IMG/VR virus record: IMGVR_UViG_3300031760_000005
Location: 93,696-157,695 of that record
Direction: 5' to 3' (one strand)
Length of the DNA: 64,000 nt
DNA from: a virus
Taxonomy: Duplodnaviria; Caudoviricetes
The position numbers were made by a program, and so were the translations under genes. Below the pieces are notes generated by a model. It worked only from the letters and a program-made list of their open reading frames with translations, did not search any database and was not told where the DNA came from. This document shows, piece after piece, positions 18,121 to 64,000 of this stretch (positions are counted from its first letter, which is position 1; each line of letters begins with the position of its first letter).

Positions 18121-18311
18121 ATTTCTTTATTTAACCAATTATTAAATTTTTTATTGCAAATTTTAAATAATGTTAAAATACCAAACAACGATATCATAAC
18201 AATATTAAATATGAAAATACTAATATCGGTAAAAAATGAAACGATTATACCTAAATATAACCAAATAGTTACAATTATTATAAATATTACATCTTTATTT
18301 GTTTTAATCAT
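18117..18311 (-). CDS. small two-TM membrane protein
   Basis: Two hydrophobic stretches. Confidence 0.6.
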   Translation of the reverse strand: MIKTNKDVIFIIIVTIWLYLGIIVSFFTDISIFIFNIVMISLFGILTLFKICNKKFNNWLNKEI

Positions 18312-18513
18312 TTTTCTCTAATATAAATGTCCAATCACTACCATTTTTTGATTTAGCCATTTTCCAATCTTTAATAGTCCATCCTTCATTTAAGAATTTT
18401 TCTAATATTGGGCTTTCATAATAAGCATAATCTGACCATCTATTTGTTTTTTTGGGATCTAAATAATGTGTTTCCCAACCTAAATTACCATCAATATCTA
18501 TTACTTTTATCAT
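18304..18513 (-). CDS. hypothetical protein
   Basis: 69 aa, overlapping start/stop coupling. Confidence 0.6.
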   Translation of the reverse strand: MIKVIDIDGNLGWETHYLDPKKTNRWSDYAYYESPILEKFLNEGWTIKDWKMAKSKNGSDWTFILEKND

Positions 18514-19193
18514 AATCTAAATTTACTTCCAAAAACTTGCATTAATGTATTAAATTCCCATACACTATCAATATCCGCAGTACCTATCGTATCACAATCA
18601 CAATTATCAATATGTACATGCCATTCAGTACCACGATTATTCTCTTTATTATCAATCTCGATTTTTATTGGTGAATAATCGTTTGTTGTCCATTTACGAA
18701 ATGCATTATAATTATCAAATGTTTGGTCAATTATATCCGAAAATCCGGCTTCATATAACATTTCTTTAGTTATTTGTGTTTCTTTATCTTCTTGAGCCTT
18801 TTCTGAAGTTATATACTCAATAAACTTTAATTGATTATCATATTCCTCATTATATTGTCTATATTCATATGATGTCATTAATCTAACTTCAACATCATCT
18901 TTTTCTAATGTTCCTTTATCTAAAATGCAAGCTAACTTCAAAGCTATATCAGGAAATTCAGTAACCAATATTGATTTGATGTTTTCACCATAAATTAAAT
19001 TAATTGCATCTTTCATTGTTGTAACATCTGTATAATCTTTTATAACATCATACAATAATGCATATGCAAGTAATTTTACTTCAAAATCTTTATTAAGTAA
19101 TAAATTAATTGATCCTAAATATTTATCTTGATATTTTGAACCAACTTGAAATATACCGAAGAAATAATTATGCTGTTTTATTTCCATTCTCAT
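18510..19193 (-). CDS. hypothetical protein
   Basis: 227 aa in operon. Confidence 0.7.
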   Translation of the reverse strand: MRMEIKQHNYFFGIFQVGSKYQDKYLGSINLLLNKDFEVKLLAYALLYDVIKDYTDVTTMKDAINLIYGENIKSILVTEFPDIALKLACILDKGTLEKDDVEVRLMTSYEYRQYNEEYDNQLKFIEYITSEKAQEDKETQITKEMLYEAGFSDIIDQTFDNYNAFRKWTTNDYSPIKIEIDNKENNRGTEWHVHIDNCDCDTIGTADIDSVWEFNTLMQVFGSKFRL

Positions 19194-26998: not shown

Positions 26999-28777
26999 AT
27001 GGAAAATACTACTGAAAAACTTTTAAACATAAATGGTGAATATATAAAATTTTATGTAACAACTAATGATAAACTTTCAAAGTTGTTAGCTAATAGTGGT
27101 GCAGCAATTATATATCATAACACCAAAAATAAATTAAATTATATTTATGTTGGTGGCCAACTTATTGCTTCTGGTTACGGATTTGATATTAATGATCACG
27201 ATAAATTAAAAGAATTATTAGAGAAATATTATTTGGAAATAAAAGACATAATAGATAATAAAAAAATACAAACATCGTATAATAATTTATCTAATTATGT
27301 AAATGATACGTTTGTTAAAAAATCTGAAGGAGATATTTCTTATACATATATTCATAATGATTTTAAAAAATTATTTTATAATCCAACATCATATAGTAAT
27401 GAATTAAATATAACTTCTAAAGATATATATAATTATATTGAAGATATAAAATATAAACGTTTTGAAATTACTGATTTATGTTATATTATTGAATATAAAT
27501 TAGATAGTGATAGTAGTTCTCCTAAAATAATGAAAATATGTTTTAGACAAAACGATAAAATTGCATTACCTGTAAATAGTTTAATTACTTCATTAACTGT
27601 TAATGCGTTAATTACATTAAATGATAATGGAGGAAGTAATAACATTAAAATGACATATTTAAAATCTAATAAAAATCCTGAGCAACTTAAATATGGAATA
27701 GTCAATGTTAATAAAAATAATCCAATAAATGATAATGTAATAAATAATATTAATATAATAAAAAATAAAGATGGTAATATCAATGATTTAGAAATATTAA
27801 ATGAATCAATTTATAATATATATAATGATTTTGGTGTAATTACTGATGAATATTATGTATTTAAAATTGTTTATAATGGAAATGCTGATAATTTAATAAA
27901 AATTAATGAAGGTAATAATAAAATTATAAAAGATATTAATTTATCTATAACAGGTACTCCAAAAGAAAAATATAAGAGTTTTACTTTCAATCAAGATATA
28001 AAATCTATAAAAAATATTTTAAATAATGAAGAAGTAAGTATAAAAAATGAAATGCAAATACAAGATTCTGAACCATTATTAAATATTGTAGGTGCTCATG
28101 AAATTTTTGTAATAAATTCTAATAATCAATTATTTGATGAAAAAAATAAATTTAAATATGATATTACTTCTGTAATTAATCCTAATAGTTTAAACAGTAA
28201 TAATTATCCGCAAGGATGTTTATTATCAACAATATTTAAAACATTAAAAAACGAATCATTTAGAATTGTACCATCAAATTATGTATTTAATAACAAATTT
28301 TCATTTACTATTAATGAAAAAAATTATGCAATATTTTTTACAATTCCATCTATATATGAAATAAAACGTATTTATTATATAAATCAAGATGGTACTGAAA
28401 GTGATATAATTGGTTATTTTATATATTGTGGTAATCAAAAATATGAAGATGATACAAATGTACTATTTAATAAAGATGGACATGATTATAAATTAACTAA
28501 TAATACTAAATTATTTTATATGTATTCTGTTTCTCGATTTAATAATGCATATACTGTATATGTAGAATTAATTAGACTTAAAAATGAAGATTTACCTGAT
28601 CCAGATACACGAGTTAATATTATTCCAGTAGATGGCCATCAAATTTTACATCAATATAATTTTGATATAAATCATTGGTATAATTATCCAGCAATCATAA
28701 ATATGGCTGGTAATTCATTTAATAATTCTTATACATTGTTAGAAAATTATATTAAGATGACTGCTCAATATTTATAA
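26999..28777 (+). CDS. Asn/Ile-rich hypothetical (likely virion) protein
   Basis: 592 aa ORF. Confidence 0.65.
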   Translation: MENTTEKLLNINGEYIKFYVTTNDKLSKLLANSGAAIIYHNTKNKLNYIYVGGQLIASGYGFDINDHDKLKELLEKYYLEIKDIIDNKKIQTSYNNLSNYVNDTFVKKSEGDISYTYIHNDFKKLFYNPTSYSNELNITSKDIYNYIEDIKYKRFEITDLCYIIEYKLDSDSSSPKIMKICFRQNDKIALPVNSLITSLTVNALITLNDNGGSNNIKMTYLKSNKNPEQLKYGIVNVNKNNPINDNVINNINIIKNKDGNINDLEILNESIYNIYNDFGVITDEYYVFKIVYNGNADNLIKINEGNNKIIKDINLSITGTPKEKYKSFTFNQDIKSIKNILNNEEVSIKNEMQIQDSEPLLNIVGAHEIFVINSNNQLFDEKNKFKYDITSVINPNSLNSNNYPQGCLLSTIFKTLKNESFRIVPSNYVFNNKFSFTINEKNYAIFFTIPSIYEIKRIYYINQDGTESDIIGYFIYCGNQKYEDDTNVLFNKDGHDYKLTNNTKLFYMYSVSRFNNAYTVYVELIRLKNEDLPDPDTRVNIIPVDGHQILHQYNFDINHWYNYPAIINMAGNSFNNSYTLLENYIKMTAQYL

Positions 28778-61645: not shown

Positions 61646-61673
61646 AAAAATGGGGAACATTAAGTTCCCCATA
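61646..61673 (-). terminator. intrinsic terminator overlapping Pth2-like stop codon
   Basis: ATGGGGAAC-TTAAT-GTTCCCCAT followed by T tract (minus). Confidence 0.7.
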
Positions 61674-62013
61674 ATTTTAATTTCTTAATTTTTCTTTTTA
61701 ATGTATCATCATAAATATCTTTTTCATGAATTGCAATAGCTGTTAATTTATTATTCAAATCTGGTTCATAAAAATAAGTTTCTTTATCATGAGCTTCATA
61801 ATATTCAAGATAATTATTTTTAATATCTTCTAAATCAGCTTGTAAATAAATTAAATATTCATTATTCCAAATATCATGATATCGTTTGCCACTTGATAAT
61901 GACTCAACCTATCCATGCTCTATGATCCATTCGGCTATAGCATGTCCACCTTGAACTGCCCCATAAATAGGATCTAAATTTTTATCAATTAATATATATA
62001 ATTTATTTTTCAT
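61660..62013 (-). CDS. Pth2-like peptidyl-tRNA hydrolase with in-frame TAG at codon 35 (61909-61911); not in ORF track
   Basis: Hand translation MKNKLYILIDKNLDPIYGAVQGGHAIAEWIIEHG*VESLSSGKRYHDIWNNEYLIYLQ...FYEPDLNNKLTAIAI...KLWGT; family motifs on both sides of the TAG in one frame. Confidence 0.8.
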
Positions 62014-62054: not shown

Positions 62055-62273
62055 TTAGATTTCAAAATCATCTAAATATGTAATTGACCAATAACCATGA
62101 GAAGCATAACTCATTGAATAATCATTATCATCTTCTTCATAACAAAGTAATGCTGGATATTTTTCAAAATCTTTTACTTCAAGATAATGACTTACTTTAT
62201 ATCTATTCCAACTATCAATAAAGCTTTGAGCTTCCTTTTCATTTCTAATTAATGTTTTGTTACAAAGTTCCAT
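62055..62273 (-). CDS. hypothetical protein
   Basis: 72 aa in operon. Confidence 0.6.
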   Translation of the reverse strand: MELCNKTLIRNEKEAQSFIDSWNRYKVSHYLEVKDFEKYPALLCYEEDDNDYSMSYASHGYWSITYLDDFEI

Positions 62274-62275
62274 AA

Positions 62276-63097
62276 TTATTTATTATATAATTTTGTTAAT
62301 ACTCCTTTTATTAATCCCCATACTGTAGTTTTATTTTGTGGTTTTGCAAATCCTTTAGTATGTTTTACTTGCGATTTAATTTGAGTTCTATCATACAAAT
62401 AATCAACTGTTGTTTTCCTTGCATATAATTCATTAATATCAATATCATTTTTATCTTCTTCTGAAATATAATCAAGAAGTTTAATGAAATGCCAATAACT
62501 TAAACAAGTTCTTTTAAAATCATTTTCATTACCACATTGACAATCTTTATTAAATTCTACAAAAACTTTATCAAGGCTTTCATCTTTATAATATTTTCTA
62601 AGATTTATTTCACAATTACAATATCCTTTACTACTAAATAAATCATTTAAAGCTTTTGAATGTTCTGAACATTGTCTAAAGAATGTTTTATATCTATTAT
62701 CTTCCGAATCATATCTTATAGACTTATTTATCCATTCATACCAGTAATAATCGTCAGGTTCATTAGTATATTTATTATTTTCCCAATCATATTTATAATT
62801 ATGACTTAAATACAATTTAAAATCATCTTTTGAAGTATTAATAATGTCTTTATAAATATCATAAGGTATAGAATGATATATACAAGGGCAATTACTATTT
62901 AAATATTTTTTGCATTTTTGAATTTCTTTATCAAGATATTCATTAACTTCCTGTTCATTAAAATCATGTTTAATACAATAATATACTAAATTCATACCAT
63001 GATAATAAAAACTTGTATTATCATTATTTGTACCTTTAATTGCTTTCTTCAAAAATATATATGAAGGTTTAGCTGTTTTATAATTCAATTTTTCCAT
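62276..63097 (-). CDS. hypothetical protein
   Basis: 273 aa. Confidence 0.7.
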   Translation of the reverse strand: MEKLNYKTAKPSYIFLKKAIKGTNNDNTSFYYHGMNLVYYCIKHDFNEQEVNEYLDKEIQKCKKYLNSNCPCIYHSIPYDIYKDIINTSKDDFKLYLSHNYKYDWENNKYTNEPDDYYWYEWINKSIRYDSEDNRYKTFFRQCSEHSKALNDLFSSKGYCNCEINLRKYYKDESLDKVFVEFNKDCQCGNENDFKRTCLSYWHFIKLLDYISEEDKNDIDINELYARKTTVDYLYDRTQIKSQVKHTKGFAKPQNKTTVWGLIKGVLTKLYNK

Positions 63098-63115: not shown

Positions 63116-63568
63116 TTATTCCCAAAAAATAATTTTATCAATATATTCACAATAATCTCCATTATCAGAAAGTTCATTTAAAATTTCGTCATCAATATAA
63201 TCTTCATATCCGGCGGCAAATAAATGTTCTTTTACTCTATTAATAAACAACACATCATCTTTTTGTTCATCAAATCGTGAATTACGATATGGGTAAAATG
63301 GAGATCCGTGAAAGTAATATTTCCATGATAAAATACCGCGATTAATCCAATATTTCTTACCATGAAGAATCCATCTATAATAAGTAATAAGATTGTGGAT
63401 TTTGACCTTTCTTTCATTAATTTCATCTACAATACTTTGTAAACTTTTGCCTTCAGGTCTATTTGCAAGTTTACGAGTTTTCTTTTGCTCTCTTTGTTCA
63501 TTTGCGAGTCGAGCGATCTCTACTTTCATTGCACTAAGTAATGCATTTCTTAATTCATTGTTTTCCAT
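63116..63568 (-). CDS. hypothetical protein (basic N-terminal helix)
   Basis: K.EI..LA.EQ...K..RK; first gene after leader. Confidence 0.7.
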   Translation of the reverse strand: MENNELRNALLSAMKVEIARLANEQREQKKTRKLANRPEGKSLQSIVDEINERKVKIHNLITYYRWILHGKKYWINRGILSWKYYFHGSPFYPYRNSRFDEQKDDVLFINRVKEHLFAAGYEDYIDDEILNELSDNGDYCEYIDKIIFWE

Positions 63569-63681
63569 ATTTGTAAATATTAATAATTTTATTTATAATG
63601 ATCTGGTGCTCTATAAATCCAATTCTATTCAACAAAATGAACACCATAAACAGTTGAACAGATTTAATAAATAAAATCTAT

Positions 63682-63723
63682 TTACGGAAAACCTCTAACA
63701 GCAATCTACCAATGTTGTCTCAT
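63682..63723 (-). promoter_or_regulatory. leader peptide uORF MRQHW*IAVRGFP with internal TAG
   Basis: ATG AGA CAA CAT TGG TAG ATT GCT GTT AGA GGT TTT CCG TAA after AT-rich aaattATG context like real genes here. Confidence 0.5.
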
Positions 63724-63741: not shown

Positions 63742-63870
63742 TTATTTAACTTTATGTGATTCTCTAAATTCTTTCCATTCACTTTCAGAAAGCTCTGGTT
63801 GATTTTCTATAGCTTTTCGCTCTTCTTCAAAAATAGATAACCACAATTCTCTTGTTTTATTAATATCCAT
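63742..63870 (-). CDS. 42-aa hypothetical protein (start reassigned, downstream of tRNA)
   Basis: MDINKTRELWLSIFEEERKAIENQPELSESEWKEFRESHKVK. Confidence 0.5.
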   Translation of the reverse strand: MDINKTRELWLSIFEEERKAIENQPELSESEWKEFRESHKVK

Positions 63871-63872
63871 TG

Positions 63873-63943
63873 TGATCCCAGTAGGACTCGAACCCACCTC
63901 TGTTGTTTTAGAAGCAACGGCACAACCTCTGTACCATGGGACC
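63873..63943 (-). tRNA. amber suppressor tRNA, anticodon CTA
   Basis: GGTCCCA/TGGGATC acceptor, GTAC-AGAGGTT-GTGC D arm, GTTGC-TTCTAAA-ACAAC anticodon arm (one C:A mismatch), GTGGG-TTCGAGT-CCTAC T arm; CCA not encoded. Confidence 0.8.
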
Positions 63944-63950
63944 AAATTTG

Positions 63951-64000
63951 ATGACGAGGAGGGAATTGAACCCACAGCTGGACTAATCCGGTAGTCATCC
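63951..64000 (-). tRNA. 3' part of a long-variable-arm tRNA (class II), truncated by window edge
   Basis: GGA-TTAG-TCC variable hairpin then GTGGG-TTCAATT-CCCTC T arm; anticodon not fully in window. Confidence 0.55.

What the first reader, a model, noticed from the sequence alone, without database searches (positions are those of the whole stretch)
63873..63943. Amber suppressor tRNA in a genome region where TAG is nearly vacant: intermediate stage of recoding
Seen: cloverleaf with CTA centred in the anticodon loop. All credible gene ends I checked are TAA or occasionally TGA, none TAG. Long late genes (portal, terminase, fibres) are intact in the standard code. In-frame TAG appears only in the Pth2-like gene and short leaders. 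Established: Lak-type and other gut phages recode TAG as Gln, with TAGs common in late genes. Inference: this phage has vacated TAG and uses it sparingly as a regulatory codon, a before-or-after snapshot of code-15 evolution. The C:A mismatch in the anticodon stem may tune efficiency; the amino acid charged is not determinable here.
Basis: partly seen in the sequence, partly recalled or inferred. Interest (0 to 1): 0.8.

Follow-up and report, generated by a model that had tools for sequence, protein, structure and literature searches.

The report
Amber suppressor tRNA with its own targets
A large gut or rumen phage that uses the normal genetic code keeps a tRNA that reads the UAG stop codon, apparently not to rewrite its code but to operate a small conserved switch: a tiny leader gene and a hydrolase gene just downstream each carry one UAG that must be read through.

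Summary
The tRNA(CUA) at 63873-63943 (-) is real. It is kept, with compensatory stem changes, in all 8 related jumbo-phage contigs I compared. It is always the last gene of a long tRNA array, and this contig (about 55% complete) breaks off inside that array.

The clade uses the standard code. TAG is a depleted but genuine stop (2-9% of gene ends), so it is not vacated.

Only two conserved in-frame TAGs exist, both just downstream of the tRNA on the same strand:
- Codon 6 of a 13-codon leader, M-x-Q-[F/H]-W-TAG-I-x-x-x-G-F-P-stop. Its last codons pair with the start codon of the next gene.
- Codon 35 of a Pth2-fold gene, TAG in 27 of 31 loci.

Lak megaphages carry the same layout in ochre form, a tRNA(UUA) followed by a leader with an internal TAA. 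The anticodon and the leader's stop codon therefore co-vary.

The tRNA is not the Gln-type suppressor that Lak uses for code 15. The amino acid it carries is unknown.

The "snapshot of recoding" idea is not.

This scan has already noted similar suppressor-gated leader/Pth2 modules in other phage genomes (AI notes). I found no published description.

The parts
63873..63943 (-). tRNA with anticodon CUA (amber-suppressor type). G1-C72, G2.U71, discriminator A73, 7-nt D-loop, 4-nt variable loop, position 31:39 unpaired. No encoded CCA.
   Evidence: ARAGORN. Rfam tRNA 45.6 bits. Eight homologues: 95% of cells paired, 6 pairs with compensatory changes, 31:39 never paired.
63950..64000 (-). 3' part of the preceding tRNA of the array, cut by the contig end. 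Relatives have tRNA-Trp(CCA) at this position.
   Evidence: T-arm-like GTGGGTTCAATTCCCTC plus an acceptor 3' strand are read directly. Relatives carry Trp(CCA) directly before the CUA tRNA. ARAGORN and Rfam do not call it because it is truncated.
63682..63723 (-). 13-codon leader uORF M-R-Q-H-W-TAG-I-A-V-R-G-F-P-TAA. The internal TAG is at 63706-63708.
   Evidence: Sequence. The same uORF with TAG at codon 6 occurs in 23 loci and 14 IMG/VR contigs. A tRNA(CUA) lies upstream in 8/8 of the first set and 5/6 of the new contigs.
63560..63692 (-). Leader RNA. A 10-bp helix forms between the uORF 3' end (63683-63692, GGUUUUCCGUA) and the start region of the next gene (63560-63569, UAUGGAAAAC, AUG at 63566-63568). 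It encloses two crossing helices that form a pseudoknot.
   Evidence: RNAalifold on 17 leaders: the helix is kept in 17/17, and synonymous changes keep pairing. Helix at columns 72-80/106-114 has compensatory changes. Helix at columns 91-98/125-132 is 93.8% paired with 3 covarying pairs. The long-range helix appears in both the MFE and the centroid fold of the window's leader.
63116..63568 (-). 150-aa helical protein of unknown function. It is the first gene behind the leader, and its AUG is masked by the uORF end.
   Evidence: ORF. 13 orthologues at 39-56% identity. No Pfam or PHROG hit. AF2 model pLDDT 69, no PDB match.
62276..63097 (-). 273-aa protein of unknown function, same strand, between the 150-aa gene and the Pth2-fold gene.
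   Evidence: ORF. No family hit.
62055..62273 (-). 72-aa protein of unknown function, same strand.
   Evidence: ORF. No family hit.
61660..62013 (-). Pth2-fold gene (117 codons) with an in-frame TAG at codon 35 (61909-61911).
   Evidence: Translation. PHROG 3668 'hydrolase' E 7e-9 spans the TAG. TAG sits at the same codon in 8/9 viral and 19/22 metagenomic orthologues. AF2 pLDDT 84. Pth2 structures give Z 8.6-10.3 over 98-105 residues; the next unrelated entry scores 3.4.

Best explanation
The tRNA(CUA) is a working, phage-encoded amber suppressor. It is the trans-acting part of a small conserved module, not of a genome-wide code change.

Layout. The tRNA is the last gene of the phage's tRNA array. 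Directly behind it, on the same strand, lie its two cognate targets.

Target 1 is a 13-codon leader whose sixth codon is TAG.
- If TAG is read as stop, the ribosome leaves about 13 nt before a 10-bp helix. In that helix the leader's last codons (GGU UUU CCG UAA) hold the AUG and first codons of the next gene.
- If the suppressor reads TAG, the ribosome runs into the helix and ends on Pro-stop, a context known to terminate slowly (inferred here). The start codon is then exposed and the downstream genes are translated.

Target 2, 1.7 kb further on, is a Pth2-fold hydrolase gene with TAG at codon 35. The site is a variable surface position, so full-length protein is made only with read-through.

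The module therefore reports and responds to the level of amber read-through, that is, suppressor tRNA against release factor 1. The rest of the genome keeps TAG rare but still uses it as a stop.

Shown: the tRNA, its conservation and covariation; the two conserved TAG sites; the conserved helix; the matching of anticodon and codon across lineages; the standard code.

Inferred: actual suppression, the direction of regulation, stalling at Pro-stop, the enzymatic activity and the amino acid inserted.
For: tRNA real and constrained.

Standard code: ORFs of at least 100 aa cover 91.4% of the contig in code 11. Reading TAG as sense gives no gain in G0, G1, G5 (376 kb, 98% complete) or G7.

Only two conserved in-frame TAGs: screens of every TAG open on both sides, compared across genomes.

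Pth2-fold gene: TAG at codon 35 in 27 of 31 loci while the flanking codons vary. The N-terminal strand and helix are part of the fold, so the two halves cannot function apart.

Leader uORF: found in 23 loci plus 6 further contigs, nearly always with a tRNA(CUA) within about 200 nt upstream.

Helix masking the AUG: kept in 17/17 leaders. The only changes are synonymous ones that preserve pairing, GC to GU four times and GU to AU three times. It is present in the MFE and centroid folds.

Anticodon and codon co-vary: Lak-type genomes have tRNA(UUA) followed by M-x-L-Q-H-W-TAA-V-T..., in 2 GenBank Lak genomes and 7 IMG/VR contigs. A homologous helical gene and the Pth2-fold gene follow it in the two GenBank genomes read in full.

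Pro-stop arrest peptides that stall with the stop codon in the A site are documented, and specifically in Bacteroidota (PMC10987492).
Against:
- The masking helix shows no true double-sided covariation, because both strands are also coding. Its conservation could partly reflect the peptides.
- The window leader's fold z-score is only -1.6.
- The residue before G-F-P varies (R, L, D, S), so a RAPP/RGPP-type arrest is not supported.
- The leader is too short to fill the ribosome's exit tunnel.
- G3 and L110 keep the tRNA and the leader TAG but have TAT at codon 35 of the Pth2-fold gene. The second target is therefore dispensable.
- One uORF-bearing contig (L115) showed no CUA tRNA in the 420 nt upstream.
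- The function of the 150-aa, 273-aa and 72-aa products is unknown.
- The contig is about 55% complete.
Confidence: 0.68

Rival explanations
1. Evolutionary intermediate on the way to (or back from) code 15. TAG has been emptied by low GC, a suppressor has been acquired, and in-frame TAGs are only beginning to accumulate or are the last ones left.
For: The contig is 25.9% G+C. TAG is 2-9% of stops against a 14-18% share among the three stop trinucleotides. A suppressor tRNA is present. This state is what the published model predicts. Distant relatives (Lak) are TAG-recoded.
Against: - The state is stable. The same two TAG positions are fixed in more than 25 loci whose proteins have diverged to about 50% identity. 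Drift would give scattered, lineage-specific TAGs.
- No TAG-recoded member turned up among the 4 larger related contigs screened genome-wide.
- The tRNA is not the Gln-type suppressor of Lak.
- Lak has the same module in UUA/TAA form beside its separate Gln-type CUA tRNA. The module is therefore independent of recoding.
- TAG still works as a stop.
Confidence: 0.12
2. The main job of the suppressor is in trans on other genomes. It would read through host (or competing phage) TAG stops as a takeover or interference weapon, or let the phage profit from or sense co-infecting code-15 phages. The leader and Pth2-fold gene would then be only a feedback or damage-control circuit.
For: The phage's own genes avoid TAG, which would make it relatively immune to its own suppressor. 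Relatives carry ribosome-rescue functions: a tmRNA in L052, a PrfH-like factor in G5 and a canonical PTH2 gene in G5 and G7. These fit with coping with read-through products.
Against: - No excess of back-up stops after the phage's own TAG-ended genes: median 6 codons to the next stop, as after TAA and TGA ends.
- G1 keeps 8% TAG stops with the same tRNA.
- In Lak the homologous tRNA reads TAA, the phage's own main stop. That would be self-harming if suppression were strong.
- The unpaired 31:39 position may indicate a weak decoder.
- The host is not identified here.
Confidence: 0.13
3. The genome is TAG-recoded after all, but only in the roughly 45% that is missing from this contig.
For: The contig is 55% complete. 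In recoded phages in-frame TAGs concentrate in some modules.
Against: The 98%-complete relative G5 (376 kb) gains nothing under code 15, and its only conserved in-frame TAG in a protein-coding gene is the Pth2-fold one.
Confidence: 0.04
4. A decayed or non-functional tRNA next to a pseudogene.
For: The Rfam score (45.6 bits) is lower than for most tRNAs of these phages. There is a mismatch in the anticodon stem. ARAGORN misses several homologues.
Against: Compensatory changes occur in 6 stem pairs. The anticodon loop is almost invariant (one A38C change in G7), and the anticodon is identical in all 8. The TAG-interrupted gene keeps an open, conserved frame on both sides in 27 loci.
Confidence: 0.02

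Closest known systems
Suppressor tRNAs in standard-code relatives of recoded phages (Borges et al. 2021/2022, bioRxiv 10.1101/2021.08.26.457843)
   Same: A low-GC phage with TAG depleted as a stop, the standard code, and a phage-encoded stop-codon-reading tRNA.
   Different: There the tRNA is read as a step before code change, and no target is named. Here the tRNA has two fixed cognate targets next to it, the state is conserved across a clade, and the tRNA is not of the Gln type.
Lak megaphage code-15 suppressor tRNA(CUA), Gln type
   Same: The anticodon is CUA. The phages are distantly related and share genes (Pth2-fold gene 43-45% identical).
   Different: The Lak tRNA has U1-A72, G2-C71, G3-C70 like Lak tRNA-Gln. 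The window's tRNA has G1-C72, G2.U71, U3-A70 and an unpaired 31:39. The positional counterpart of the window's tRNA in Lak is a tRNA(UUA), not the Gln-type CUA tRNA.
Leader-peptide switches that unmask a downstream start site (ErmCL/ermC, SecM/secA; Pro-stop arrest peptides uDF_NAP-stop and uA_NSP-stop of Bacteroidota, PMC10987492)
   Same: A short conserved uORF, a helix that hides the next gene's initiation region, and a C-terminal Pro followed by a stop.
   Different: The input is not a drug or secretion status. It is read-through of an internal stop codon by a dedicated tRNA. The leader is only 13 codons long, and stalling was not tested.
prfB (RF2) autoregulation through an in-frame UGA
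   Same: An early in-frame stop codon is used as a sensor of termination capacity.
   Different: prfB escapes by +1 frameshifting and senses RF2. Here escape would be by a cognate suppressor tRNA encoded beside the sensor.
Peptidyl-tRNA hydrolase 2 (PTH2, PF01981; Bit1/PTRH2, archaeal Pth2)
   Same: The same fold over nearly the whole protein: Z 8.6-10.3, 98-105 of 117 residues.
   Different: There is no sequence-level match to PF01981 or to the phage clade's own canonical PTH2. I did not make a residue-level catalytic comparison.

Membership tests
tRNA (Rfam RF00005) | Cloverleaf scoring above the family's gathering score | tested here: met
   45.6 bits against 29, full length. The cloverleaf is 95% paired across 8 homologues, with 6 compensatory pairs.
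Amber suppressor tRNA | Anticodon CUA at positions 34-36 of a 7-nt loop with U33 and a purine at 37 | tested here: met
   The loop is UUCUAAA, and the anticodon is the same in all 8 homologues; G7 has C at loop position 38.
Amber suppressor tRNA | Is aminoacylated and inserts an amino acid at UAG | not testable with these tools
   The only indirect support is conserved cognate TAG sites next to the gene, and the UUA/TAA counterpart in Lak.
tRNA-Pyl (ARAGORN's label) | Six-bp anticodon stem, 3-nt variable loop, small D-loop without G18G19, atypical T-loop | tested here: not met
   The anticodon stem has 4 paired bp, the variable loop 4 nt, the D-loop is AGAGGUU with GG, and the T-loop is the canonical UUCGAGU. 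The label follows from the anticodon alone.
Gln-type code-15 suppressor (as in Lak) | Acceptor stem and body of tRNA-Gln (U1-A72, G2-C71, G3-C70 in Lak tRNA-Gln and Lak tRNA-CUA) | tested here: not met
   The window's tRNA has G1-C72, G2.U71, U3-A70. No close paralogue was found among 117 tRNAs of G5/G7 or the 60 Lak tRNAs retrieved.
Genetic code 15 genome | Many conserved genes interrupted by TAG; coding density rises when TAG is read as sense | tested here: not met
   Coverage is 0.939 in code 11 and 0.936 in code 15 for G0, and likewise for G1, G5 and G7. One protein gene has a conserved internal TAG.
Pre-recoding intermediate (Borges model) | Low GC, TAG depleted among stops, suppressor tRNA present | tested here: met
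   25.9% G+C. TAG is 2.0% of stops against a 16% trinucleotide share, p 3.5e-11. tRNA(CUA) present.
Pre-recoding intermediate (Borges model) | Close relatives that have gone on to TAG recoding with the same machinery | tested here: not met
   G1, G5 and G7 are standard code, and G3 shows no TAG use. Lak is recoded but uses a different tRNA(CUA).
PTH2 (PF01981) | Match to the family profile | tested here: not met
   No Pfam hit at E up to 1. PF01981 finds a different, canonical gene in G5 and G7 but not this one. hhalign against that gene gives probability 0.5%.
PTH2 (PF01981) | Pth2 fold | tested here: met
   Foldseek probability 1.0 to 2zv3, 3erj, 1q7s and 1xty. VIA-align Z 8.6-10.3, then a drop to 3.4 for the next unrelated entry.
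Leader-peptide translational switch | Conserved uORF plus a conserved structure that occludes the downstream initiation region | tested here: met
   uORF in 23+ loci. A 10-bp helix over the AUG in 17/17 leaders.
Leader-peptide translational switch | Ribosome stalling on the leader and regulated expression of the downstream gene | not testable with these tools
   Needs toeprinting and reporter assays.
RAPP/RGPP-type arrest peptides | R-A/G-P-P motif at the arrest site | tested here: not met
   The C-terminus is [R/L/D/S]-G-F-P-stop. R is not conserved and there is only one Pro.

The most novel reading that the evidence does not exclude
Large phages carry a natural, self-contained sensor of stop-codon read-through. 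It consists of a dedicated suppressor tRNA, a leader peptide with the matching internal stop codon that unmasks the next gene only when read through, and a Pth2-fold hydrolase under the same gate. The stop codon and the anticodon have switched together between lineages, TAG/CUA in this clade and TAA/UUA in Lak megaphages. Such a circuit could hold suppression at a safe low level. It would also be the standing machinery from which genome-wide recoding can start.
Probability: 0.5. Interest if true: 0.85.

Novelty: new variant of a known kind. Interest (0 to 1): 0.75.

Why it matters
Suppressor tRNAs in phages that use the standard code have been treated as orphans or as first steps towards recoding. 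Here the tRNA has named, conserved targets. The anticodon changes together with the target's stop codon between phage lineages, which is genetic evidence for function without an experiment.

If the switch works as proposed, it is a natural example of gene control by regulated stop-codon read-through with a private tRNA. It explains why such tRNAs persist in standard-code genomes, and it offers a compact orthogonal switch for synthetic biology. It also puts a Pth2-fold enzyme, and in relatives a tmRNA and a PrfH-like factor, in the context of managing read-through.

Tried and rejected
- Back-up stops: the three TAG-ended genes of this contig have a second stop 1-3 codons later. Across five contigs, TAG ends are no different from TAA or TGA ends: median 6 codons, Mann-Whitney p 0.95.
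- Other in-frame TAGs: candidates at G0 53700, 62772, 62912, 84008 and 153008 are unconserved and non-coding in appearance. G5 306025 is a TAG in the untranslated leader just before the start codon. Many tblastn hits were antisense or off-frame echoes of conserved genes, or came from the tRNA array.
- Release factors: there is no RF2-type gene. The one RF-1-domain hit, in G5, is a 205-aa PrfH-like protein.
- Origin of the tRNA: no convincing paralogue among the phages' own tRNAs. Lys and Asp tRNAs are weakly closest.
- Amino acid from homologues: codon 35 aligns with Tyr (TAT) in G3, and with Asn or a gap in Lak-like homologues, within a variable loop. This is not informative.
- Hairpin directly after the uORF (alignment columns 48-55/69-76): no covariation support.
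- The 150-aa protein: no Pfam, PHROG, Atlas or PDB fold match.
- Sequence searches of the Pth2-fold profile against PDB sequences found nothing.
No read-level or RNA evidence could be obtained.

Full report
**Observation**

ARAGORN finds a single tRNA in the window, anticodon CUA, at 63872-63943 on the minus strand. Rfam's tRNA model matches 63873-63943 full length at 45.6 bits, against a gathering score of 29.

The window is the last 64 kb of one 157,695-bp virus contig with 25.9% G+C and no terminal repeat. CheckV puts its completeness at 55%. The last 51 bases of the contig are the 3' part of another tRNA.

**Genetic code and TAG usage**

ORFs of at least 100 aa already cover 91.4% of the contig in code 11. 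A simple codon-usage gene call gives 205 genes ending in TAA 176, TGA 25 and TAG 4. One of the TAG ends is the first half of an interrupted gene. Portal, large terminase and ORFs up to 1169 aa in the window are intact.

TAG makes up 2.0% of stops here, while it is 16% of the three stop trinucleotides in the DNA (p 3.5e-11). In related contigs it is 8.1% (G1), 0 of 48 (G3), 4.9% (G5) and 4.3% (G7). TAG is therefore depleted, not vacated. One TAG-ended gene has a G1 orthologue that stops at the same residue. Back-up stops are not enriched after TAG.

**Relatives**

The terminase finds a 163-kb contig (G1, 82% identical) and others. The interrupted gene finds more, including a 376-kb contig rated 98% complete (G5) and a 236-kb one (G7). 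A metagenome scan adds 22 loci, one on a 474-kb contig. These are jumbo phages of about 25-27% G+C carrying 50-65 tRNAs.

Their terminase and portal are only about 30-40% identical to Tenacibaculum phage PTm1, Sphingomonas phage PAU, other huge phages and Lak. Some genes are closer to Lak. Reading TAG as sense gives no gain in coding coverage in G0, G1, G5 or G7.

**The tRNA is conserved and constrained**

Every one of 8 related contigs has a homologue with anticodon CUA. It is always the last gene of the array, after tRNA-Trp(CCA). ARAGORN misses four of them, but Rfam scores them at 33.7-37.4 bits.

On the alignment, 95% of cells pair and six pairs show changes on both sides. Position 31:39 is unpaired in every sequence, as C.A, A.C or C.C.

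The tRNA is not of the Gln type. Lak's tRNA(CUA) and tRNA-Gln share U1-A72, G2-C71 and G3-C70. This one has G1-C72, G2.U71 (U2.G71 in some homologues), U3-A70 and A73. No clear paralogue exists among the phages' other tRNAs. It also lacks the features of tRNA-Pyl. The amino acid it carries cannot be inferred.

**Target 1, the Pth2-fold gene**

The frame 61660-62013 (-) has a TAG at codon 35, at 61909-61911. PHROG 3668 ("hydrolase") aligns across the TAG. The TAG is at the same codon in 8 of 9 viral loci and 19 of 22 metagenomic loci, at 49-73% protein identity, while neighbouring codons vary. The exceptions are G3/L110, which have TAT there, and two Lak-like forms.

The AlphaFold model (pLDDT 84) matches Pth2 structures at Z 8.6-10.3 over 98-105 residues. 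The next unrelated entry scores 3.4. There is no sequence match to PF01981, nor to the canonical PTH2 gene that G5 and G7 carry elsewhere. The TAG lies in a poorly conserved stretch, so whichever residue is inserted should be tolerated.

**Target 2, the leader**

There a 13-codon uORF reads M-R-Q-H-W-TAG-I-A-V-R-G-F-P-TAA. The same uORF, M-[K/R/T]-Q-[F/H]-W-TAG-I-x-x-x-G-F-P-TAA, occurs in 23 loci. It lies 84-144 nt before an ATG GAA AA start. It is also present in 14 IMG/VR contigs, and 5 of the 6 new ones have a CUA tRNA just upstream.

RNAalifold on 17 leaders pairs the uORF's end, GGUUUUCCGUA, with UAUGGAAAAC, the start of the next gene. This helix is kept in 17 of 17. The only substitutions are synonymous ones that preserve pairing. 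It also appears in the MFE and centroid folds of the window's own leader.

Two further helices are supported by compensatory changes and cross each other, forming a pseudoknot. The hairpin right after the uORF is not supported.

The codons G-F-P are fixed at the nucleotide level, which fits an RNA constraint. The N-terminal codons vary synonymously, which fits a peptide or context constraint.

**Co-variation of anticodon and codon**

In Lak-B5 and Lak-A2 a tRNA with anticodon UUA sits upstream of the Pth2-fold homologue. It is followed by M-[E/K]-L-Q-H-W-TAA-V-T... and then by a gene resembling the 150-aa one. Seven IMG/VR Lak-type contigs show the same pairing of tRNA(UUA) with an internal TAA.

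So the internal stop of the leader matches the anticodon of the adjacent tRNA in both lineages. Lak's separate Gln-type tRNA(CUA) lies elsewhere in its genome.

**Mechanism proposed**

With TAG in the A site the ribosome should not reach the helix, which begins 13 nt after the TAG, so termination leaves the next gene's AUG masked. Read-through by the suppressor takes the ribosome through the helix to Pro-stop.

Pro-stop arrest peptides that stall with the stop codon in the A site are documented in Bacteroidota (PMC10987492). Slow termination would keep the AUG open. The Pth2-fold gene is gated a second time by its own TAG.

What the 150-aa, 273-aa and 72-aa products do is unknown.

**Comparison and novelty**

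The path "low GC, TAG depletion, suppressor acquisition, recoding" is published. The present case fits its middle state in composition but not in dynamics, because it is a fixed, clade-wide arrangement with dedicated targets.

I found no paper describing a suppressor-tRNA-gated leader. The scan's own notes report similar modules, often with an R-G-P-P leader, in at least 23 other phage genomes. Those are AI notes, not independent evidence. This instance differs from them in having a G-F-P-stop end, and it adds the Lak ochre counterpart.

**Limits**

All functional steps are inferred. No RNA or read data could be obtained. The contig is incomplete, and my gene calls are home-made.

Noticed in passing
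L001:2401-2473 and L002:2234-2306 (Lak-B5, Lak-A2); L129-L135: Lak megaphages, which read TAG as Gln, carry a tRNA with the ochre anticodon UUA. A leader uORF with an internal TAA (M-x-L-Q-H-W-TAA-V-T...) follows directly. TAA is their main stop codon, so this tRNA must be weak or tightly controlled.
   Followed up: partly
L052:1232-1614: A tmRNA (Rfam RF00023, 74.7 bits, full length) lies inside the tRNA array of a close relative, a few hundred bases before its CUA tRNA.
   Followed up: no
L091:1192-1809 (G5 308600-309217): A 205-aa protein with a GGQ release-factor domain and no codon-recognition domain. It looks like PrfH, a ribosome-rescue factor. No RF2-type gene was found in these phages.
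   Followed up: partly
G5 18181-18582 (L060:18181-18582) and G7 27688-28089: A canonical PTH2 gene (PF01981, 113 bits, no internal stop) exists in addition to the TAG-interrupted Pth2-fold gene. The two show no detectable sequence similarity.
   Followed up: partly
L052:4001-4399 and L092:3001-3360: In these relatives the Pth2-fold gene is also followed or ended by a TAG. L052 ends in TAG with 26 more open codons. L092 has a TAG one codon before its TAA. Read-through would therefore also lengthen the protein.
   Followed up: no
G1 158580-158654 and G5 347200-347275 (between the CUA tRNA and the uORF); window 63742-63870: G1 and G5 share an almost identical ~75-nt non-coding stretch with a long inverted repeat right after the tRNA. 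In the window this place is taken by a 42-codon ORF (M-D-I-N-K-T...) not seen in the relatives.
   Followed up: no
L056:2679-2748; G5 343937-344006; L124 (first 420 nt upstream of its uORF): A tRNA-like gene that ARAGORN reports with a two-base 'anticodon' (ag) and Rfam scores at 38.9 bits recurs in the arrays of several relatives.
   Followed up: no
window 61909-61911 and 63706-63708, and orthologues: Both TAG sites often share the same local context, [H/F/N]-W-TAG-I (for example CAT TGG TAG ATT), and a purine usually follows the TAG. This may be a read-through-favouring context.
   Followed up: partly
L113:2008-2389: A Lak-like, TAG-less homologue of the Pth2-fold gene on a metagenome contig has a tRNA(CUA) directly downstream of it instead of upstream.
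   Followed up: no
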